From an uncultured Gammaproteobacteria bacterium (lineage in GTDB: Bacteria; Pseudomonadota; Gammaproteobacteria; JABCZS01): DNA of 64,000 nucleotides. The position numbers and the translations under genes are program-made. The stretch lies in assembly GCA_963848305.1 (NCBI GenBank), contig CAWKDC010000001.1, positions 448,001 to 512,000 of the forward strand, read 5' to 3'. The notes under the pieces were generated by a model that ran no database searches, was not told the DNA's origin, and was given only the letters and a program-made list of their open reading frames with translations. Positions 14,978 through 27,014 of this stretch are shown piece by piece; positions within the stretch are counted from its first letter, which is position 1, and each line of letters begins with the position of its first letter.

Positions 14978-16090
14978 CTATTTCAAAGAATTGCGCACGA
15001 GGGTAGCCGGCTCTTCGGCTGTCGGGTGAGCCCGCTGTTCAAGGTGTTGTTTAAGGATGTTAAGCGCTGATGTTTTTGCTCGACATAGTTTTTCAAGGCC
15101 GACCGCACCGACAAGGCGTGGCCCTGGCGCGCCCCACACCGCCGCCCCGGCATAAATCGCAAAATCAAAACCCAAACCCGTCGTGGGCGGAGAAGAAATT
15201 GGAGGGAAATAGGAAATATCAGAAGATGATTGATAATTGTATAAAGTGAGAGAACGGGTGGGTGGCTGGTTTTGTTCCATACGATCGTAAAGACCCTGGA
15301 AGAATGCCTGGGCATCAACGGCCGGAACCAAACGCTCTAAATAACCAATCACTTGACACCAAAAGAGGGAGAGTTGATTGTCATTCCAGGGATCCCAGTT
15401 TTGACTGTAGACGTCAAAGGCTTCAATCAAATAATTGAGATTAAAGTGATGACCTTCGGTGACTTCTTTGGGAAGAAAATAGTGTCTGAATTCATTTAAA
15501 ACCGCTTGGGTTTCGGGGCTTGTTGGGTCATTTGTGAGGGCATTGACTATCTTATCCATCAATGCGGTAAATTCAGCTTCGACCTGTGGGTACTCAAAAC
15601 CACTGGGGAATTGCTCTTGCATTTGTCTTTGTGCGCGCTGTATTCCTGTTTCGATAGTCTCGCCGTTTTCATTCTTATAAATAACTTGATGGGCATGCTT
15701 GAGCATGTCATTGTAAATCTCACTGTCTCCAGTTCCTAAGGCGGCTTTAAAGGCAGAGCTTTTAACCCTTCTTGGCACCACTCGGTCTTCATCTATACCC
15801 GATGCCCATTCAACTCCGCTTGTTTCAATAAACATGACTTTGGGATTGGCAGCAATCATCGCTTTTGCTTTTTTGACATTCTCTTCGGTGGGCTTTAAAA
15901 CATAGTCCATGAGCTGCTTTGCAGCGCGTTCATCAAGGCCTGGCTGAATCCAAGCGCGAGTTTCACGGTTCATAATCAAGGTCGCTGCCGTGGCGGGTGT
16001 TGAATACATCGCAATTCTGGCAATCAACTCAGGGGGTAAGGCCGGTAAAGCTTGTTCTGCAGATGCCTCAGGTTCCTTTGATTTAAACAT
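14978..16090 (-). CDS. F-box-like effector candidate
   Basis: N-terminal LPALPPELIARIAMY; C-terminal LFWCQVIGYLER/QAFFQGLY/LGFDFAI resembles Legionella effector-like proteins (recalled, unverified). Confidence 0.6.
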   Translation of the reverse strand: MFKSKEPEASAEQALPALPPELIARIAMYSTPATAATLIMNRETRAWIQPGLDERAAKQLMDYVLKPTEENVKKAKAMIAANPKVMFIETSGVEWASGIDEDRVVPRRVKSSAFKAALGTGDSEIYNDMLKHAHQVIYKNENGETIETGIQRAQRQMQEQFPSGFEYPQVEAEFTALMDKIVNALTNDPTSPETQAVLNEFRHYFLPKEVTEGHHFNLNYLIEAFDVYSQNWDPWNDNQLSLFWCQVIGYLERLVPAVDAQAFFQGLYDRMEQNQPPTRSLTLYNYQSSSDISYFPPISSPPTTGLGFDFAIYAGAAVWGAPGPRLVGAVGLEKLCRAKTSALNILKQHLEQRAHPTAEEPATLVRNSLK

Positions 16091-16194
16091 GGAATACCTC
16101 AACGATGAAAATAAGTTAGAAAGAAGAATACTGTAAAGACAATATAAAGTCAAATACTTAAGGCCATTAGGAGAATAAAACCAGGTTAAAATAG
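16021..16194. repeat. 174 bp direct repeat copy 1 (promoter + RBS + first 23 codons)
   Basis: Colinear with 17505-17678, roughly 90% identical by eye. Confidence 0.95.
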
Positions 16195-16272: not shown

Positions 16273-17574
16273 TCAATTATTTTTGAAGGTTCGCAATTTA
16301 ATACAGGGTAAGAGTGGCGCCTCATGAAGCAAGCTATGTAAATTTGATAGCGACGACTTAACGTCTGGATAACAAACCAGTTTATCAATAAGTCCCGACC
16401 ATGGTTGTGGCGCTTTGCCACCTTCTCTGTAACGATGGATTGCATTTTCACCAACGCTCTCCCGAATCATTTGAAAGGCCAAATTTTCCAGGTATACTTT
16501 CCCATATTCATCAATTTGATTTTCATCAAAGATCTGATCAATGGTTTTTTGAAAACGAATCAATGCCCATAAGATGGGGATAGCTTGATGTCTATCATCA
16601 ATATAAATGTTTACAATTTCTTTTGCATCATCGATGTTAAAAAAGCTAAATTCAACAGCCACTTCATCATAATATTGATCATTTACCAAGCAGGAAGCCC
16701 GCTTTTTATTTCCATAGCAATGCGCCCCCATACTTTTTAATAAATTCAATGTATCTTGATCGTGAGTGTATAGTTCTATTTTTTTGCACTGTTTTGATGA
16801 CTGGATTAACTGATGGCGCAAATGGGCAATGGCAGAGTCATCATAACCTGAATCCAAATTAATGCTCCAAAATATAATATGTGAAAATCTCAGCGTTCCA
16901 TGGGTACCTGAAATGTTCAAATGATTTGATTTCGAACAAACATCTGATTTTAACTTAGGCATGACGGGCAAAAATGGTTGGACAGATGATATAGATGACT
17001 CTAAAATATTTTCATCAAGAATGTATTCCATATAGCGAGCACCCATTCTCCATTTGTTTCGATATTCTTCTGGCCCGGTTTCTCTGCGGGGTCGATCTGC
17101 AAATTCAACAGTTGGAGTAAATCCCATTTTTTTTGCTAGCTGAAAAGCGGGATCATTATCAGTTGTTATCCCCATTTCAATGCGTTTAATCATCGGCCTT
17201 TTTCTTACTTCCTCCATAAATAATTTATAAAAAAGTCTACCCAAATTTCTGCCAAGACAGTCTTGATGAACAGCGAAAGAGCCAAATTCGACAGTGTGTT
17301 GATATTTTCCTTGCTTTGTAACAATTCTGCGGACAGCAACAATTTTTTGGTCTTCTTTTAATACATATACTTCACTGGTATTAAAAATTTGTTTGAAATC
17401 TTCCTCGTGCGTAGTTTTTTCAAACGCTAAAAAAGGCAAAACATGTTCTTGCTTCCAAATATCACAAATGGCATCAAAGTCTGATGTAGTGGCTTTATAG
17501 AGGACAATCAACTCAGGGGGTAAAGCCGGTAAAGCTTGCTCTGTAGATGCTTCAGGCTCCTTTGATTTAAACAT
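16273..17574 (-). CDS. GNAT acetyltransferase with borrowed N-terminus
   Basis: FAVHQDCLGRNLG acetyl-CoA motif, NDPAFQLAKKMGF; begins MFKSKEPEASTEQALPALPPELI. Confidence 0.8.
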   Translation of the reverse strand: MFKSKEPEASTEQALPALPPELIVLYKATTSDFDAICDIWKQEHVLPFLAFEKTTHEEDFKQIFNTSEVYVLKEDQKIVAVRRIVTKQGKYQHTVEFGSFAVHQDCLGRNLGRLFYKLFMEEVRKRPMIKRIEMGITTDNDPAFQLAKKMGFTPTVEFADRPRRETGPEEYRNKWRMGARYMEYILDENILESSISSVQPFLPVMPKLKSDVCSKSNHLNISGTHGTLRFSHIIFWSINLDSGYDDSAIAHLRHQLIQSSKQCKKIELYTHDQDTLNLLKSMGAHCYGNKKRASCLVNDQYYDEVAVEFSFFNIDDAKEIVNIYIDDRHQAIPILWALIRFQKTIDQIFDENQIDEYGKVYLENLAFQMIRESVGENAIHRYREGGKAPQPWSGLIDKLVCYPDVKSSLSNLHSLLHEAPLLPCIKLRTFKNN

Positions 17575-17678
17575 GGAATACCTCAACGAAGAACATAAGT
17601 TAGAAAGAAGTATACCGTAGAGACACTATAAAGTCAAATACTCAAGGCCATTAGGAAAATAAAACCAGGTTAAAATAG
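17505..17678. repeat. 174 bp direct repeat copy 2
   Basis: Matches 16021-16194; holds minus-strand TTGACT-17-TATACT promoter. Confidence 0.95.
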
Positions 17679-17723
17679 AGGTTTTATGTTTGAAATCAGG
17701 TGGTTGCCTCGAGAATGTCAACA

Positions 17724-17940
17724 GGCCAAGCTGCGACTGAGCAGCAGCCACTATTATTATCCAGACCAGCGCAAGTAGCTTTGCAGCCTCAACAATCACT
17801 GATAGTGTGCTAATTTGTCAAGCATGATGTCGACGTATAGAAGACACAAGAATGAAACCACTCCACTTGCAGCACAGTATCCCATTGTTTTGATTGGTGC
17901 CGGCGCGGGGAATCGAACCTCGGACCTACTGATTACGAAT
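17724..17940. repeat. att repeat: 46 bp tRNA-Thr 3' fragment (17895-17940) plus ~170 bp downstream sequence
   Basis: Near-identical to 26762-26984 apart from a 6 bp indel and two substitutions. Confidence 0.95.
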
Positions 17941-18080
17941 TATAACAACTGATTTTATATACGTTTAAAATCTTTTATAATCATTTTGAATCTTTTATAT
18001 TTTCGATTAGATATCATATACATAAAATAAGTTTCTGATATAATCCCTGTGAATGTTTTGGAAACAATGTTAAATATACT

Positions 18081-18100
18081 GTCGACACATAGTCGACACA
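18081..18100. promoter_or_regulatory. putative integrase arm-type sites (GTCGACACA x2)
   Basis: Tandem 9-mers 11 bp apart between att and integrase; TGTCGAC also occurs in both att arms. Confidence 0.5.
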
Positions 18101-18135: not shown

Positions 18136-19368
18136 ATGAAGATTACCAAAAAAATTGTCGATGGCTTAATCCTTCCTCCCGTAGAAGCTGTCGGCAAAAC
18201 AGCACAAAAACGTTACTACGACGACTCACTAAAAGGATTTGGCATTCGTGTGACCTCTGGTGGATCTAAGTCATTTTTTATCGAAAAGCGCATAGGCGAT
18301 AAGCTACGACGTATCACCCTAGGTCGCTATGGCGAGCTAACGGTTGAGCAGGCTCGTAAAGAAGCTCAGAAACTCCTGGGTCAAATTGCCTCTGGTGTTG
18401 ATCCTATCGCACAAAAACAAGCTGCGAAGATGAGTGCAGTCACCTTAAACGATGCCTTCGGTGACTATATCCTGGCGCGCAAAGGCTTAAAGGATAAAAC
18501 TGCCTACGATTACAAACGGTGTATTGAAATTGCATTTGCCAAATGGAAAGACAAACCGCTTGCATCAATCACCAAAGATAGCGTCTCAAAACTGCATGAA
18601 ATGCTTGGCTCCGAACATGGTCATGCCTATGCCAACCTCTCCATGCGCCTACTGCGCGCAATTTTTAATTTTGCCATTGCAAAATATGAAGGCGAAGACG
18701 GTCGATCGCTCATACCCGAAAATCCCGTCAAACGATTATCGCAAACGCGAGCATGGTACCGTGTAGACAGACGACGCACATTCATCACGGTACATAAACT
18801 AACTGAATGGTATTCGGCAGTCACAGTCCTGTTAAATCCTGTACTTCGCGATTACTTGTTGTTCACTCTGTTTACTGGCCTTCGGCGACAAGAAGCAGCG
18901 AAACTGCAGTGGCATGACGTTGACCTTCAGGCAAAGACCTTTACGGTGTCTGATACAAAGAATAGGCACCCCCATACCCTACCCTTATCTGATTTTTTAT
19001 ACGAACTTCTTTGCAAGCGAAAGGAAGCGACAACAAAAGCCTACGTTTTCCCAGGATCAGGCAAAGGTGGCTACATCATTGAGCCACGCAAACAAATGGC
19101 AAAAGTGACGCAAGCAAGTGGTGTTGAGTTCACTGTTCATGATTTACGGCGCACATTTATTACCATTGCTGAAAGCATCGATATATCTGCATATGCCCTG
19201 AAGGGCTTGATGAATCATCACATGTCGGGCGATGTGACAGCGGGTTATATCATGACAGACGTCGAGCGATTGCGTAAGCCGATGCAACAGATCACCGATT
19301 ATCTTTTGAAAGCGATGCATTTGAAGGAAGATGCCGAGGTGGTTCCAATAAAATTGTCAAAAGCTTAA
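18136..19368 (+). CDS. int: tyrosine integrase with N-terminal arm-binding domain
   Basis: GFGIRV..GGSKSF, TGLRRQEA, HDLRRTF, MNH, VTAGY catalytic residues; AAGGAG RBS. Confidence 0.95.
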   Translation: MKITKKIVDGLILPPVEAVGKTAQKRYYDDSLKGFGIRVTSGGSKSFFIEKRIGDKLRRITLGRYGELTVEQARKEAQKLLGQIASGVDPIAQKQAAKMSAVTLNDAFGDYILARKGLKDKTAYDYKRCIEIAFAKWKDKPLASITKDSVSKLHEMLGSEHGHAYANLSMRLLRAIFNFAIAKYEGEDGRSLIPENPVKRLSQTRAWYRVDRRRTFITVHKLTEWYSAVTVLLNPVLRDYLLFTLFTGLRRQEAAKLQWHDVDLQAKTFTVSDTKNRHPHTLPLSDFLYELLCKRKEATTKAYVFPGSGKGGYIIEPRKQMAKVTQASGVEFTVHDLRRTFITIAESIDISAYALKGLMNHHMSGDVTAGYIMTDVERLRKPMQQITDYLLKAMHLKEDAEVVPIKLSKA

Positions 19369-19398
19369 GTAATCATGCAGAAAAAATGATCATTGCTA

Positions 19399-19427
19399 TT
19401 GACATTTCAAAATAGGTAATTGATAAT
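19399..19427 (+). promoter_or_regulatory. sigma70 promoter
   Basis: TTGACA-N17-GATAAT. Confidence 0.7.
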
Positions 19428-19433
19428 TCGAAT

Positions 19434-19710
19434 GCACCTCGTCAAAGGTTTCTATGACTGGCAACTGGGCCATTACCATCCAGGGTCTACCTACTCAAAG
19501 GGTTCTATGGGTGCGACAAGCGCATAATCTTGGACGCATTCTCCACTAGGGAGAGTTGTAGCGGAACAGTCTTCATCTGAAAATGTGAAGCAGATATCCC
19601 ACTGTGTAAATGGGAGACAAGATCGTCCTAGTAGATTAAGTCATAACGGGAAATATCGACGCCTTTAATGTCGATAAAATGGTTCTTGGTGCTTTTTTAT
19701 AAAGCGCCTG
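19434..19710 (+). ncRNA. candidate structured leader/ncRNA
   Basis: Nested long-range stems and at least six hairpins between the promoter and the xis-like gene (manual folding). Confidence 0.5.
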
Positions 19711-19745
19711 GAGTGATTTACGTTTTGATTTAATAAGGACTGATC

Positions 19746-19985
19746 ATGACTGATCTTACCTATTCTTCATTGGCAATAAATTCTGCGCCAAAACTTCTCA
19801 CTGAGCATGAAGTTGCTCCAATTATCCGAAAATCCGTTCATTGGCTCCGGCGCGATCGTTGGAAAGGCGGACCGGATGCTATCCCCTATAGAAAACTAGG
19901 CTCATCTGTTAGATACGATCTGCAGAACGTTATCACCTGGATTAATTCGCATGGTCTACAAACCTCTACCAGTGAAGTGAGGTAA
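19746..19985 (+). CDS. excisionase/AlpA-like HTH protein
   Basis: LLTEHEVA..IRKSVHWLRRDRWKGG..PYRKLGSSVRY pattern. Confidence 0.85.
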   Translation: MTDLTYSSLAINSAPKLLTEHEVAPIIRKSVHWLRRDRWKGGPDAIPYRKLGSSVRYDLQNVITWINSHGLQTSTSEVR

Positions 19986-19988
19986 GCC

Positions 19989-20357
19989 ATGGAATACAAA
20001 AAATACACCGCAGGACGTGGTGAAAACGTCCATGCGGTCAACAATTATCCCCGCGCAAAGTATATAAGAAATGAGCTCGATCGTGACAAACGCCCTTCAC
20101 CGTTGAAAGTGCTATCAATGTTCGACATTAAGCCTGGAAAAGCAAATGCTGCGGGCTTCTGGAGAATAAAATGTCCGTTTCACAAGCAAGGCAAGGAAAA
20201 AAATCCAAGCTTTGATATGCACCAGGTCGACGGGTATTTCAAATGCCATGCCTGCGGAGCAAAGGGGGGTGATACGATCGCATTTTATATGCAAATGACT
20301 GATAGCACCTTTTCGGAAGCAATCAAAACGCTTGGTATCGTGAGAGGTGCAAAATGA
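19989..20357 (+). CDS. CHC2 zinc-finger (primase ZBD) protein
   Basis: CPFH...PSF...FKCHACGAKGGD..F.M....FSEA. Confidence 0.88.
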   Translation: MEYKKYTAGRGENVHAVNNYPRAKYIRNELDRDKRPSPLKVLSMFDIKPGKANAAGFWRIKCPFHKQGKEKNPSFDMHQVDGYFKCHACGAKGGDTIAFYMQMTDSTFSEAIKTLGIVRGAK

Positions 20358-22582
20358 GCACTTCAATCGTTATACAGGAAACAGCACAAGAAGCTGCACG
20401 TAGGCTTACAAAATATTGTCAGGATAATGGGTATAAACTCAACAATCTCTATGAATACAGGGATAGTGCAGGGATTACCGTATATTATCGTCTCAGATTA
20501 GATCATCCTACAAATCCCAAGAAAATATTCCCAATGCACTATCATCCTACAAAAGGCTATCAATTAAGCGAGCCAGGTGCATTTTCAGCTGGTCAAAAAC
20601 CGTTGTATGATTTGTTTTATCTTGTGCAACACCCTGATGCGATCGTATTTGTTGTAGAAGGAGAAGGGGTAGTAGATGCGCTGAATGCGTTCATTGCGTT
20701 ACAGGGGGCATCTTCAAAATATGTTGCAGTCACAAGCGGTGGAGCAACAAGCGCAAGTAGCGCAGATTGGTCCAATCTGGCGGGAAGGATAGTACGGATT
20801 TGGGGAGATAATGACGATCCTGGCAAAAGGTATGCAAATGTGGTTGTCGCCATTTTGTACGAACTACGTTGTAACGTATCAATCTTAGATATTTCAGGAT
20901 TAAACCTACCAGAGGAAGGTGATTGTGTTGATTGGTTGGCAGCTAATACCCAAGCAACAATTGATGATTTGCTTGGCATACCTGTGCTCAAACTTGAACA
21001 GCAGGAGCATGAGAACCTGCATTTAAAAGATGCTGAATGGACTATTCCGGGTTCAATATTAGCACCTCTACATCCTGTCCCGACTTTTGAGGCAGAAATA
21101 CTTTTGCCAAAACCATTATGTGAATGGGTGATGAGTGAAGCTGAGCGCATGTCTTGTCCACCTGATTTTATTGCAGTTGCTGCAATAGTTTCTTTAGGTT
21201 CAGTGATAGGTGCGCGATGTGGAGTGCGTCCTAAATCTCAGGATCCATGGATAGTCATACCCAATCTATGGGGTGCAATTGTTGCACCCCCATCTTCTAA
21301 GAAATCACCCGCGATTGCGAGAGCCTTTAAGCCCATTAACACACTTGCAGAGAAGGCAGTTCAACAATTCGATGAAGAAATGGAAGGGTATTCTGTTAAA
21401 AAAAAACAATACGAGGCGATGCGAAGAGCGCATGAAAAAGCAATTGATAAAGCTGCGAAAACCGCTTTAAATGACGGGGATCATGAATTGCAAACAGCCC
21501 TCATGAGATATCAACACTTTGAGCAAAATGCACTTAAAGAGCCGACACTTAGACGATATAAAACCAATGACAGCACAATTGAAAAAATTGGTGAACTGCT
21601 GCAAGAAAATCCAAATGGGTTGCTTGTCGAAAGGGATGAGATCGTTGGCCTGCTGTCTACTTGGGAAAAGCACGGGCATGAAGGTGATCGGGCATTTTAT
21701 CTTGAATCATGGAATGGCACATCAAGCTACAATACAGATAGAATTACTCGTGGCTCAATTTCAATACCAAACCTTTGTCTTTCTGTATTCGGCGGAATAC
21801 AGCCTGATAAGCTTATTGCATATCTCGAGCAGGCTGCTTATGCGTTATCAAACGATGGCATGTTACAAAGATTTCAGTGTATTGTTTACCCGGATCCCAC
21901 ACCATGGAAATGGTCTGATTCCAGGCCAAATGATCAGTTGCAAGAAATGGTAAACAAGAAATTTGAAACTCTATCTGAAATTGACTTTGGGACACTTGGC
22001 GCATCACCTGGTGATTGCCATTCAAAGCATGCCTTCTTTAGATTTGATAATGAAGCGCAGCAAATTTTTATAGATTGGACTTCCGAGATAAACAAAGTCA
22101 GAATACCTCAAGAACCACAACCCATTATTCAAGAACATTTGGCGAAATATGATAAGCTCTTTTCTGCCATTGCACTGATCCTGCATCTTGTTGACTGTGT
22201 TTCATCGGGACAAGGTGGCCCAATCACAGCAGAATCGGCATATCGCGCAGCTGCTTGGTGTGAGTATTTAGAAAAGCATGCCAGGCGATGCTATGGTCTT
22301 CTCATTGACGATGGATTACGCTCAGCTCAGGCTTTAGCAGAAAAAATACAGAACGGTAGGCTCTCAGAGGATTTTACAGCTCGAGATATAAGTCGTCATA
22401 ATTGGAGATATCTAACATCAGAAAATTCAGTTAAATCAGCTCTTGAATGGCTTGAAGAAGAGGGATGGGTACGTTCGACTGAAACAGGGGGAAGTGGCCC
22501 TGGTTCGGGACGACCAACAAGACGATACTCGATCAATCCTCACCTTAAAACAATTAAGCAGAGGAGCGATGAAAATGAGTGA
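20354..22582 (+). CDS. Toprim-DUF3987 (YfjI-like) replication protein
   Basis: VVEGE, WGDNDDPG, GDCVDW Toprim motifs; PNLWGAIVAPPSSKKSPA, RDE, FGGIQP, DGMLQRF DUF3987 motifs. Confidence 0.88.
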   Translation: MSTSIVIQETAQEAARRLTKYCQDNGYKLNNLYEYRDSAGITVYYRLRLDHPTNPKKIFPMHYHPTKGYQLSEPGAFSAGQKPLYDLFYLVQHPDAIVFVVEGEGVVDALNAFIALQGASSKYVAVTSGGATSASSADWSNLAGRIVRIWGDNDDPGKRYANVVVAILYELRCNVSILDISGLNLPEEGDCVDWLAANTQATIDDLLGIPVLKLEQQEHENLHLKDAEWTIPGSILAPLHPVPTFEAEILLPKPLCEWVMSEAERMSCPPDFIAVAAIVSLGSVIGARCGVRPKSQDPWIVIPNLWGAIVAPPSSKKSPAIARAFKPINTLAEKAVQQFDEEMEGYSVKKKQYEAMRRAHEKAIDKAAKTALNDGDHELQTALMRYQHFEQNALKEPTLRRYKTNDSTIEKIGELLQENPNGLLVERDEIVGLLSTWEKHGHEGDRAFYLESWNGTSSYNTDRITRGSISIPNLCLSVFGGIQPDKLIAYLEQAAYALSNDGMLQRFQCIVYPDPTPWKWSDSRPNDQLQEMVNKKFETLSEIDFGTLGASPGDCHSKHAFFRFDNEAQQIFIDWTSEINKVRIPQEPQPIIQEHLAKYDKLFSAIALILHLVDCVSSGQGGPITAESAYRAAAWCEYLEKHARRCYGLLIDDGLRSAQALAEKIQNGRLSEDFTARDISRHNWRYLTSENSVKSALEWLEEEGWVRSTETGGSGPGSGRPTRRYSINPHLKTIKQRSDENE

Positions 22583-23380: not shown

Positions 23381-23391
23381 GGGGGTGATTG

Positions 23392-23829
23392 ATGGCACAA
23401 TTTCAAGCCGGGCAATCAGGCAATCCGCACGGTCGGAAACCAGGCTGTTTGAATAGACGCACGCAATTATCAAAATTGCTCGAGCCACATGCTGAAGAAC
23501 TCATTGGCATTCTCGTGCACCAAGCTAAAGCCGGTGACCCAAATGCCTTAAAGCTATGCATTGAAAGGCTCATCCCAAAGCCGAAAAGCGGAGGTCCTAG
23601 CATTTCTCTACCAAACGTGGATACCTCCCTGCCGGATCACCTAGAGCTGTTCAGGGAGGCATTGTTGCTTACCCTTACGAATCAGGATGAGATCGATCTG
23701 GATGCCCTGAAGGTAATTTTGGAGCTCATCAGTGTATGTCATAGCGAGAAGCTTGCAGTCAAGGACGACGATGAGTCTGACCAAAGACTTGCTGAACTAG
23801 TCAAGAGGCTGCAGCATCAAACTATTTAG
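23392..23829 (+). CDS. DUF5681 protein (terminase-small-subunit-like)
   Basis: FQAGQSGNPHGRKPG and AKAGDPNALKLCIERL. Confidence 0.8.
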   Translation: MAQFQAGQSGNPHGRKPGCLNRRTQLSKLLEPHAEELIGILVHQAKAGDPNALKLCIERLIPKPKSGGPSISLPNVDTSLPDHLELFREALLLTLTNQDEIDLDALKVILELISVCHSEKLAVKDDDESDQRLAELVKRLQHQTI

Positions 23830-25329: not shown

Positions 25330-25575
25330 ATGATTAAAAAATGTCCAGCACTTTTAAAGTTAGGTAAAAAGATCAGAGACCTTAGGAAAGCCCGGGGGTA
25401 CTCTAAAGAGAGCTTTGCCGATAAGGTGGGCTTAGATAGGACCTATATCGGGGCTATAGAGCGTGGTGAACGAAATATCGCTGCCTTAAACCTCATTCGC
25501 ATTCCAAAGGCCCTTAAAATAGAAGTTGGCGAACTGTTCCCACCCGTAAAAATACCCCAGATTGATTCGCTATAG
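25330..25575 (+). CDS. Xre-family HTH regulator
   Basis: GKKIRDLRKARGYS..FA..GLDRTYIGAIERGERN. Confidence 0.9.
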   Translation: MIKKCPALLKLGKKIRDLRKARGYSKESFADKVGLDRTYIGAIERGERNIAALNLIRIPKALKIEVGELFPPVKIPQIDSL

Positions 25576-26761
25576 TTGCATGTGATGCACTCCCTTTTAG
25601 AGTAGTATGAGGCTTGCTTTTCTTCATTATTTGTTAGATAATGGACTATATGTAGTCTTGGCTGTACAGCGGGAGAAGATGAAAATGATTGATATCAAAG
25701 ACATAGAAAAACAAGACAAAGCAGGTGAAAATTCATCTATTACCGCCGCAGTTCCAGCAAAGACAATTGATCTCGCCACGTTAATCGCACCCCTAGCCGC
25801 ATTCCCCAGTGTTTTTGAAGCTATTAATGACAAAGAGATAGATGAAACAAGAATTGCTCTCCTGCAACAGCTTTCAAGCAACAAAGATACTGACGCAAGA
25901 AAAGCAATCCATAGCGTGCTGATAGACATGGAATGGCACTTTTCTACGGAAAAGCCCACTTGTGGCATTATGTTCGAAGAAATGACCTCTGAAAATAAGT
26001 CTCGGTTTATCATCTTTCTTTCGGGATTTGAAAACACCCCTACATACACTTTATACCTCAAAGAGAATTTAATAGGTTGGCTTAATATTAAAAAAACTTA
26101 TCCGGTAACAGGGCTTCCCTTGAACCTGGGTGAAATGGCATATTTACAGAATGTGCATGGAATTGATATTGATAACCCTTTAGTTGGTTTAAATCCCGCA
26201 ACGCTAATCCCTGCGGTCCAAAGTACAATGGCAGATTATATGGCGGAATATCGTTGGGAATTTGAAACACGAGGTACATGGGCAGTAGCTTGGCTCATAT
26301 TTAAGGAATGTGCTGCATTGGGGGTTATTGGTTGTATCATTGTATATGCGGGGTTTTGCGCCTTGCTCATCCCTGCCCATGCATCTGTCTACGTAACAAA
26401 CCTAACAACTCGCGAGCATAGACCTTTTACCGATTTGTTTAATATTTCCCCTGATAACAGAAATAGTGGCTTTGCTTATGCATGCACATACATGGTCTTA
26501 TTTAGCGCGATTTTTACTGCATTATTCGTGACCGGAGCCGCCCAAAGCATGGCGGAGGATTTTATAGAGTCAACCATGCCCAATGCCGCGTCTCATTCAG
26601 GGATGTTGACAACCTATTTTGCAGTTTGCTTTGCATCGCTTATCTCGAGTTTACCGTTGTACTTCTCAATATTATTAGCCGGAAAGTCGCTAGAGAGTAA
26701 GGTAAATCGACTTTTTGGTGAAGATCACGTAAGTCGATTATTGGCCTCACAGCGTGCAGCT

Positions 26762-27014
<253 letters not shown>

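What the first reader, a model, noticed from the sequence alone, without database searches (positions are those of the whole stretch)
19399..19745. Candidate novel structured RNA between integrase and excisionase
A near-consensus promoter precedes ~310 nt with no long ORF and nested pairings: TATGACT(19453)/AGTCATA(19639), GTCTACCTA(19485)/TAGTAGAT(19629) and ATCTTG(19527)/CAAGAT(19618). These enclose three hairpins (19540-54, 19571-90, 19597-615) in a cloverleaf-like junction. An alternative or pseudoknot pair GGACG(19532)/CGTCC(19624), a direct repeat TCAAAGG.TTCTATG (19442, 19495) and two more hairpins (19654-76, 19688-708) are also present. It sits where a repressor would be, so RNA-based immunity or attenuation, analogous to P4 CI/C4 RNA, is plausible.
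Basis: partly seen in the sequence, partly recalled or inferred. Interest (0 to 1): 0.75.

Follow-up and report, generated by a model that had tools for sequence, protein, structure and literature searches.

The report
RNA lock on satellite excisionase gene
A 9-kb phage-satellite-like island carries a conserved, uncatalogued non-coding leader that is predicted to fold over the ribosome-binding site of its excisionase-like gene, likely keeping the island silent until an upstream hairpin loop would pry it open.

Summary
Its cloverleaf (19449-19650) folds no better than shuffles (z -0.4) and is not conserved. The conserved structure is the 3' domain, 19621-19745: a three-way junction whose outer helix pairs with the Shine-Dalgarno of the xis/AlpA-like gene. 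It has z -3.4 to -5.4 in 5 of 5 homologues (47-68% identical). In a model-fitted alignment, 15 of 36 pairs change on both sides. The motif follows xis, not int, and precedes different replication modules. In 4 of 5 homologues a 5' hairpin loop is complementary to the anti-SD strand, with compensatory changes (post-hoc P 0.0006). This suggests a pseudoknot-type opener, though nested-fold energies do not support one. No Rfam, C4 or isrK match. Best reading: a cis translational lock on the lytic operon of a PICI-like element, trigger unknown. A trans immunity RNA is a weaker rival. Expression is not shown, only five sequences exist, and XRE-HTH genes could still be repressors. The scan earlier noted a similar SD-hiding alpA leader in an E. 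coli island (e1-022970, unchecked).

The parts
17768..17940 (.). attL-side copy of the 173-nt direct repeat (3' part of tRNA-Thr plus downstream DNA; a further 57-nt repeat at 17719-17775)
   Evidence: 99% identical to 26812-26984
18080..18098 (.). Tandem TCGACAC-type repeats before int; likely integrase arm-type sites (inferred)
   Evidence: same repeat class in front of most related integrases
18136..19368 (+). Tyrosine integrase (Arm-DNA-bind_3 + Phage_integrase); best relatives 62-78% identical; the named ones are Legionellales or unclassified Gammaproteobacteria
19399..19427 (+). Sigma70-like promoter, 11/12 consensus; a promoter-like site also lies upstream of the leader in the homologues
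   Evidence: 3 of 4 homologues score 9/12 or more; L011 has a perfect -35 with a TGn -10-like element, my reading
19454..19549 (+). 31-codon upstream ORF ending in the loop of hairpin H1; not conserved, probably incidental
19538..19556 (+). Hairpin H1; loop and 3' flank (19545-19551, ACTAGGG) complementary to the anti-SD strand 19626-19632; predicted opener
   Evidence: stem probability 0.95; loop complement in 4 of 5 homologues
19597..19615 (+). Hairpin H3 just before the lock; stem changes CCCA/TGGG to CTCA/TGAG in L011 with a similar loop; weak or different in the others
19621..19632 (+). Anti-SD strand a'; 19621-19629 pairs with 19736-19745
   Evidence: pair probability 0.95-1.0; GTCCT/AGGAC vs ATCCT/AGGAT vs CACCGTGA/TCACGGTG in homologues
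19635..19648 (+). Strand b' (most conserved sequence, AGTCAT.AC); pairs with 19721-19734
19654..19676 (+). Hairpin H4 (TCGAC...GTCGA core), sequence nearly invariant, with G-U changes
19677..19719 (+). Long hairpin H5; sequence free, pairing kept (10 of 11 pairs change on both sides in at least one sequence)
19736..19745 (+). Shine-Dalgarno region (AGGA at 19736-19739) of xis, paired in the predicted fold
19746..19985 (+). Excisionase/AlpA-like HTH gene (79 aa); no Pfam hit itself, but 23 of 25 family members hit HTH_17
19989..20357 (+). CHC2 zinc-finger primase piece
20354..22582 (+). Toprim + DUF3987 primase/helicase
23389..23829 (+). DUF5681 protein, in the slot where two relatives carry a small terminase; no PHROG hit
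25330..25575 (+). XRE/HTH_3 gene; possible protein repressor or cargo
26812..27014 (-). attR repeat (26812-26984) overlapping the intact tRNA-Thr(CGT) at 26939-27014

Best explanation
The spacer is likely the 5' leader of the xis-primase operon of a PICI-like integrative element, and its conserved 3' domain is predicted to fold back over the xis Shine-Dalgarno, likely keeping the excisionase/activator untranslated, while an upstream hairpin loop would compete for the same anti-SD strand and open the lock. Shown: the element's gene order and att repeats; five divergent homologous leaders, always directly before the xis clade; the same fold predicted in each with compensatory changes; the loop/anti-SD complementarity. 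Inferred: transcription from 19399-19427; translational repression; that the loop pairing forms (as a pseudoknot, or first during transcription because the loop is made about 190 nt before the SD); and that a helper-phage product or a short leader-derived RNA tips the balance. Untranslated leader RNA may also expose the downstream primase genes to Rho, as in P4 (recalled, untested).
For: 3' domain z -5.4, -3.7, -4.1, -4.6, -3.4 on the + strand, 0 of 60 shuffles as good in each of 5, at 47-68% pairwise identity. On the CM-fitted alignment 83.8% of cells pair (29-53% when partners are slid) and 15 of 36 pairs change on both sides (shuffles 8.2 +/- 2.0, 0 of 500). RNAalifold on the unfitted MAFFT alignment gives 14 of 36. 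The anti-SD helix is rewritten while pairing is kept (window GTCCT/AGGAC, L099 ATCCT/AGGAT, L067 CACCGTGA/TCACGGTG) and is worth 10-16 kcal/mol. SD unpaired probability is 0.01-0.23 in full leaders and does not change from 15 to 55 C. There are 3-9 G-U pairs per fold, and the + strand is 9-16 kcal/mol more stable in 3 of 5 and about equal in 2, which fits RNA better than a DNA cruciform. The motif tracks xis: cargo genes separate it from int in L011 and L067, replication genes differ among carriers, and model R1 found only these carriers among 86 + 88 sources. A 6-7-nt complement of the anti-SD segment sits in a 4-5-nt hairpin loop in 4 of 5 homologues; shuffled 5' domains reach 4 of 5 at any position of the 3' segment tested in 0.06% of draws. 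L011 changes both sides (ACCAAGA/TCTTGGT, 7 WC pairs with its own target, 4-5 with the others). GN-PICIs depend on an AlpA activator, and a global repressor is unclear (PMC6092414, passages).
Against: Only five distinct sequences; L067 was picked by its xis, and all five trained the model. The tool warns that 5-25% of unconstrained alignments beat its shuffle control on percentage paired. b' and H4 hardly covary. No transcript: the one RNA run has a single 216-nt contig over xis (19787-20002, depth 2.6) and none over the leader. The opener is weak: the loop criterion was set after seeing the data (P 0.087 without the loop condition), window and L166 share the same loop, and L067 lacks the match. 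Native 5' domains do not lower the nested cost of opening the RBS more than shuffled ones in window, L011 or L099 (11, 15, 17 of 30 as low; L166 3, L067 0). The loop duplex (-8 to -10 kcal/mol, before paying 1.5-7.4 to open H1) is weaker than the SD helix. L166's minimum-energy fold rearranges H4. Structured leaders are common before distant xis genes too (14 of 52 with z of -3 or lower), so SD burial may be a general damping device rather than a switch. An XRE-HTH gene in the element could be a protein repressor.
Confidence: 0.6

Rival explanations
1. Trans-acting immunity RNA (P4 CI / P1 C4 type; the first reader's idea). A processed piece carrying a' and b' pairs with the SD region of nascent or incoming cognate transcripts and shuts them off, while the 5' domain plays the seqA role.
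For: The central strand has complements both upstream and downstream, the CI/seqA/seqC topology described in PMC4825925 (section 21). C4 and isrK hits occur in several GN-PICIs (PMC10111431, passages). H4 and H5 could protect a processed 3' end (inference).
Against: No C4 or isrK match at the locus. The cis fold alone buries the SD, so no trans partner is needed. No terminator was found to define a small RNA, and no small-RNA data exist.
Confidence: 0.14
2. Static lock opened by a protein or nuclease. A helper-phage RNA-binding protein recognises the invariant H4 junction, or RNase III cuts the stacked a'/b' helices around their internal loop and frees the SD; the 5' loop match is incidental.
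For: H4 and the junction bases are conserved in sequence beyond what pairing needs. The stem / internal loop / stem geometry resembles RNase III processing signals (recalled). Nested energies show no help from the 5' domain.
Against: It does not explain the loop complement with compensatory change. Host RNase III is constitutive (recalled). No candidate protein was identified.
Confidence: 0.13
3. DNA-level operator. H4 is an inverted pair of integrase arm-type sites, or the repeated RTCAT words are AlpA/Xis sites, so that control is transcriptional.
For: H4's 5' arm (TTCGAC.C in four homologues) matches the TTCGACAC repeats before the same integrases at 7 or 8 of 8 positions. AlpA activates its own promoter in EcCICFT073.
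Against: The changes keep RNA pairing but break the DNA word (L166 GTCGG; G-U pairs; the wholly rewritten a'/SD helix in L067; sequence-free H5). TCGAC/GTCGA words occur 26 times in 9.3 kb and 1.5 per kb genome-wide.
Confidence: 0.08
4. Neutral or chance folding of an AT-rich spacer, or a single-strand DNA origin/transfer hairpin.
For: Minus-strand z-scores are also strong in 4 of 5; the element encodes a primase.
Against: The same fold is kept across 47-68% identity, always ends on the xis SD, and is independent of the replication module.
Confidence: 0.05

Closest known systems
ColIb-P9 / IncI repZ leader (Rfam PK-repZ type; PMC4705826, passages)
   Same: A stable structure masks the SD of a mobile-element control gene, and a distant stem-loop's loop pairs near the RBS to hold it open.
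   Different: No conserved leader peptide and no antisense Inc RNA found here. The loop pairs with the anti-SD strand about 110 nt upstream of the SD. The target is an excisionase/AlpA gene, not rep. No Rfam match.
Gifsy-1 IsrK / isrK-orf45-anrP (RF01394; PMC4825925, passages and section 21)
   Same: A prophage leader with a dominant translationally silent fold and an alternative fold; a 5' portion could activate in trans.
   Different: No isrK hit, no terminator defining a short form, and no orf45-like coupled ORF.
P4 CI RNA (seqA/seqB/seqC) and P1/P7 C4 antisense RNA (RF01695)
   Same: Sits in the lytic-operon leader of a satellite; a central strand has complements upstream and downstream.
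   Different: No CM match. The downstream complement is the xis SD within one cis fold, and processing to a trans RNA is not shown.
int-alpA RNA motif (Weinberg 2017; description recalled, name seen in a table of PMC12370729)
   Same: A structured RNA beside integrase and alpA-type genes.
   Different: No hit in Rfam 15 scans of the window or four homologues. The paper's supplement could not be read, so the drawn structure was not compared.
Gram-negative PICIs (EcCICFT073; PMC6092414, PMC10111431)
   Same: Co-directional int, AlpA/HTH_17 and primase between att repeats; small terminase in two relatives.
   Different: HTH_17 rather than Phage_AlpA; helper phage and packaging unknown; an SD-burying alpA leader was not described in the passages read.

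Membership tests
C4 antisense RNA (RF01695) | Match to the covariance model | tested here: not met
   0 matches at E<=10 in the whole genome; none in 19300-19800
C4 / P4 CI immunity RNAs | Antisense strand with complementary sites upstream and downstream in the same leader | tested here: inconclusive
   downstream complement strong; upstream complement 6-7 nt in a loop in 4 of 5, not significant by duplex energy (p 0.04-0.97)
C4 / P4 CI immunity RNAs | Processed stable small RNA acting in trans | not testable with these tools
   only contig-level RNA data; no cover of the leader
isrK (RF01394) | Match to the covariance model | tested here: not met
   10 weak matches in the genome, none over cut-off and none at the locus
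isrK (RF01394) | Intrinsic terminator giving a short isoform | tested here: not met
   no terminator-like site in the window's spacer; homologues not scanned with the tool
int-alpA motif and other Rfam 15 families | Match at gathering score | tested here: not met
repZ-type pseudoknot switch | SD masked by stable structure | tested here: met
   predicted in 5 of 5
repZ-type pseudoknot switch | Upstream loop pairs near the RBS structure | tested here: inconclusive
   complement in 4 of 5; energetically weaker than the lock
repZ-type pseudoknot switch | Leader peptide whose stop lies at the masked RBS | tested here: not met
   no conserved uORF; the window's ends about 190 nt upstream of the SD
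repZ-type pseudoknot switch | Antisense RNA opposite the loop | tested here: inconclusive
   no shared minus-strand promoter at relaxed thresholds; no stranded reads
Gram-negative PICI | int + AlpA/HTH_17 + primase, co-directional, between att repeats | tested here: met
Gram-negative PICI | Helper-phage-dependent induction and packaging | not testable with these tools
   TerS in L011 and L067; none called in the window; no excision joint in 8 runs of sparse contigs
RNA thermometer | SD helix melts across physiological temperatures | tested here: not met
   SD accessibility unchanged 15-55 C in 5 of 5 (prediction)

The most novel reading that the evidence does not exclude
A new class of RNA switch does the job of the missing master repressor in PICI-like satellites of Legionellales-type bacteria. 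A three-way-junction lock on the AlpA/excisionase SD is opened by an SD-mimicking hairpin loop, in cis as a pseudoknot or in trans as a short leader RNA, when a helper-phage product acts on the invariant H4 junction. A second leader family in Legionella elements, with the same topology and a covarying H4-like hairpin, would make it a widespread principle.
Probability: 0.25. Interest if true: 0.8.

Novelty: new variant of a known kind. Interest (0 to 1): 0.56.

Why it matters
[quoted passage not shown] A conserved SD-burying leader with a defined anti-SD strand, a candidate opener loop and natural compensatory variants turns that question into a small reporter and SHAPE experiment in laboratory E. 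coli. It also adds an RNA motif absent from Rfam 15. If it is only a static damper on a toxic activator gene, it is a modest new cis-regulatory motif.

Tried and rejected
Direct repeat 19442/19495: two AAAGG+ATG words heading 31- and 6-codon ORFs; uORFs differ in every homologue, and the repeat is not evident in the alignment. Riboswitch-like nested ON state: native 5' domain no better than shuffles in 3 of 5; duplex-energy tests p 0.04-0.97. Thermometer: rejected. Internal or antisense promoters: none shared. Spacer blastn: no match in plasmids or phages; 3 short, weak hits (E 0.001-0.006) among 60 relatives, none confirmed by the model. More homologues through the xis profile: nothing new in 12, 86 (one search repeated the same 86), 31 (45), 203 of 206 (46), 41 (84), 22 (85) and 20 single genomes (40, 80-82). 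In 400 of 401 class genomes there was one distant xis with a stop and no motif. Four genomes were not scored by the tool. Viral pattern scans: 2 and 4 loci, one each being L166; the rest were judged chance (only L260 of the three was read, and it lies in a DNA-polymerase-like ORF). DNA around the other close xis proteins (P0122-P0145) could not be obtained, so about 20 further leaders stay unexamined. Expression: run X7 holds one 216-nt contig over xis at depth 2.6 and nothing over the leader; DNA carry-over is not excluded, so it is not used as evidence. No excision joint in 8 sparsely covering runs. RNAalifold on ten Legionella-type leaders recovered only the 5-bp hairpin because the alignment was poor. 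Literature search returned irrelevant papers. The Weinberg 2017 supplement was unreadable and may bear on the int-alpA and c4-2 comparison.

Full report
Context. The flagged spacer lies in a 9.0-kb integrative element bounded by a 173-nt direct repeat (17768-17940 / 26812-26984) that overlaps tRNA-Thr(CGT). Gene order is integrase (18136-19368), spacer, a 79-aa HTH gene (19746-19985), CHC2 zinc finger, Toprim-DUF3987 primase/helicase, two unknowns, DUF5681, a BNR-repeat cargo gene, an XRE/HTH_3 gene and an unknown. The named integrase relatives are Legionellales or unclassified Gammaproteobacteria. The 79-aa protein has 24 close relatives; 23 of the 25 hit HTH_17, and one relative hits excisionase PHROGs. 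Relatives carry phage-type replication initiators or primases, and two a small terminase, so the family is PICI-like. Helper dependence was not testable.

Observation. Rfam 15 has no match at gathering score in the window except the tRNA, and only two chance hits at E<=10 in 19300-19800. The proposed cloverleaf region folds no better than shuffles (z -0.38, 21 of 60), whereas 19615-19750 has z -5.4 (0 of 60).

Homologues. Among 245 loci gathered mostly through the integrase, nhmmer with the spacer hit L011 (E 2.6e-7), L099 (0.0015) and L166 (0.055), plus three weaker hits elsewhere that I set aside. The three lie directly before an xis 56-71% identical to the window's. L067 (same element as L117, xis 58%) shows the same core words at the same distance from the start codon. 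In L011 and L067 a cargo gene separates int from the motif, so it belongs to xis. A covariance model from these five found nothing else above 18 bits in 86 and 88 sources. Profile searches of several hundred further genomes and two viral pattern scans gave no sixth sequence. The analysis therefore rests on five sequences, 47-68% identical in the 3' domain.

The conserved structure. Each homologue folds its last ~130 nt into the same shape. An outer helix pairs strand a' with the xis SD. After an internal loop, a 7-14-bp helix pairs b' (AGTCAT.AC) with b2. A junction then carries hairpin H4 (TCGAC...GTCGA) and a long hairpin H5; L166's minimum-energy fold rearranges H4. z-scores are -3.4 to -5.4. 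On the model-fitted alignment 83.8% of cells pair and 15 of 36 pairs change on both sides, with 0 of 500 shuffles as high; sliding partners gives 29-53%. The unfitted alignment gives 14 of 36. Both lean on five related rows, and the fitted one leans towards the model. The clearest changes are in the SD helix: GTCCT/AGGAC in the window, ATCCT/AGGAT in L099, TCCT/AGGA in L166, a U-G in L011, and a rewritten CACCGTGA/TCACGGTG in L067. H5 keeps pairing with free sequence; b' and H4 are mostly invariant and say little by covariation. The SD helix is worth 10-16 kcal/mol and does not melt in prediction from 15 to 55 C. G-U pairs, and the greater stability of the + strand in 3 of 5, favour RNA over a DNA cruciform. 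Linkage to xis rather than to any replication gene argues against an origin.

The possible opener. The 5' domains are strings of small hairpins that differ among homologues. In four, a 6-7-nt complement of the anti-SD segment lies in a 4-5-nt hairpin loop: window 19545-19551 with 19626-19632, L011 with changes on both sides, L099 with one, and L166 with the same loop as the window. Shuffled 5' domains give such a coincidence at any position of the segment tested in 0.06% of draws. The criterion was chosen after seeing the data; without the loop condition P is 0.087, and L067 lacks the match. Against it, duplex energies are not significant, nested folding shows no help from the native 5' domain in 3 of 5, and the loop duplex is weaker than the SD helix. 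ViennaRNA cannot score the pseudoknot, so these tests do not exclude it. No leader peptide, terminator, internal promoter or antisense promoter is shared.

Mechanism. Most likely the leader is transcribed from 19399-19427 and, once complete, buries the xis SD, so the activator/excisionase, and with it excision and replication, stay off (inferred). The loop is made first and mimics the SD, so it could capture a' during transcription or invade through the internal loop. Something extra (a helper-phage product, or a short leader RNA in trans) would have to favour that state (inferred, weak). I put 0.6 on this account, about 0.75 on the lock alone and about 0.4 on the loop being functional. Rivals are a trans CI/C4-like RNA (0.14), a protein- or RNase III-opened static lock (0.13), a DNA operator, given H4's likeness to the integrase's arm-type repeats (0.08), and chance or origin (0.05). 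The XRE gene at 25330-25575, with a look-alike in L011 (judged by eye), means the element is not proven repressor-free.

Wider pattern. Of 52 leaders before distant xis homologues, 14 have z of -3 or lower (25 shuffles each, start codons picked automatically). Ten Legionella-type elements share a second leader: a promoter about 200 nt upstream, a long outer helix and two hairpins, one of them CGGCA...TGCCG, which differs from H4 by an A-U to G-C swap. It is not hit by my model or, in the four loci scanned, by Rfam, and its SD burial is weaker (opening cost 4-12 kcal/mol). Others use a simple local SD hairpin. SD burial thus seems a recurring trait of this gene family, which supports function but tempers the claim of a dedicated switch.

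Comparison with known systems. It works most like the ColIb-P9 repZ leader (masked SD opened by a loop pseudoknot; PMC4705826, passages) but lacks the leader peptide and antisense RNA. It resembles IsrK (silent dominant fold; PMC4825925, passages and section 21) and P4 CI / C4 in topology, but fails their models. GN-PICIs rely on AlpA as activator with an unclear repressor (PMC6092414, passages), and some carry C4/isrK-type RNAs (PMC10111431, passages). PMC2864571, PMC5737381, PMC12370729 and PMC10724649 (references only) were seen as passages; the int-alpA description is recalled and its supplement was unreadable. Searches listed no paper on such a leader, judged from listings and the passages read; the library lacks most subscription journals.

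Expression. One metatranscriptome has a single exact 216-nt contig over xis and none over the leader; this shows nothing about the RNA. No excision joint was seen.

Verdict. The feature is real, but it is not the fold described. It is a new, Rfam-negative cis-regulatory leader of a known kind (SD sequestration in a mobile element), with a testable candidate switch. Interest 0.56.

Noticed in passing
L062:9140-9345, L073, L051, L069, L063, L113, L006:4590-4815, L025, L066, L033 (leaders before xis): Second structured leader family in Legionella-type elements: promoter, long outer helix (e.g. GAATTTTCAA/TTGAAAATTC) and two hairpins including CGGCA...TGCCG. In L025 and L066 the 5' strand has a rival upstream partner. 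No Rfam hit at the leader in the four loci scanned.
   Followed up: partly
L007:9490-9545, L020, L124, L129, L130, L133, L140, L156, L158, L162, L163, L036 (before xis): Simple local hairpins that pair the SD of distant xis homologues (z down to -8.9 in L007).
   Followed up: partly
window 18080-18098 and upstream of most related integrases: 11-12-nt-spaced tandem repeats in sequence classes (TTCGACAC, TTCTACAT, TGCGACAC, GTCTAC) before the integrase start; likely arm-type sites that could covary with the arm domain.
   Followed up: no
window 17719-17940 and 26757-26984: The att duplication is unusually long and includes the 3' end of ORF 25607-26857, suggesting a relic of an earlier tandem island at the same tRNA.
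   Followed up: no
window 14978-16153 and 16273-17586 (minus strand): Two adjacent genes share a near-identical ~25-aa N-terminus with an F-box-like LPALPPELI word (label recalled); one continues as a GNAT, the other has no Pfam hit. They look like eukaryote-directed proteins of an intracellular bacterium.
   Followed up: no
G000:C3:198878-204500 (L005:1379-7034): A second integrative element near another tRNA-Thr, with int, an AlpA-like gene and primase pieces; it lacks this RNA motif.
   Followed up: partly
G000:C3:3019-17647: Cluster of 15 tRNA calls on contig C3, including odd anticodons (Ile-TAT, a Cys-ACA call, a Pyl-CTA call); may be a phage- or plasmid-type tRNA array.
   Followed up: no
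L067:8340-8570: This homologue has replaced its anti-SD/SD pair, carries two copies of the new anti-SD word and two hairpins with the same loop; it looks like a recent duplication and rewiring.
   Followed up: partly
L006:7871-8168: RAGATH-13 and RAGATH-32 RNAs on the 14.6-kb Legionella fallonii plasmid III, which also carries a relative of this integrase.
   Followed up: no
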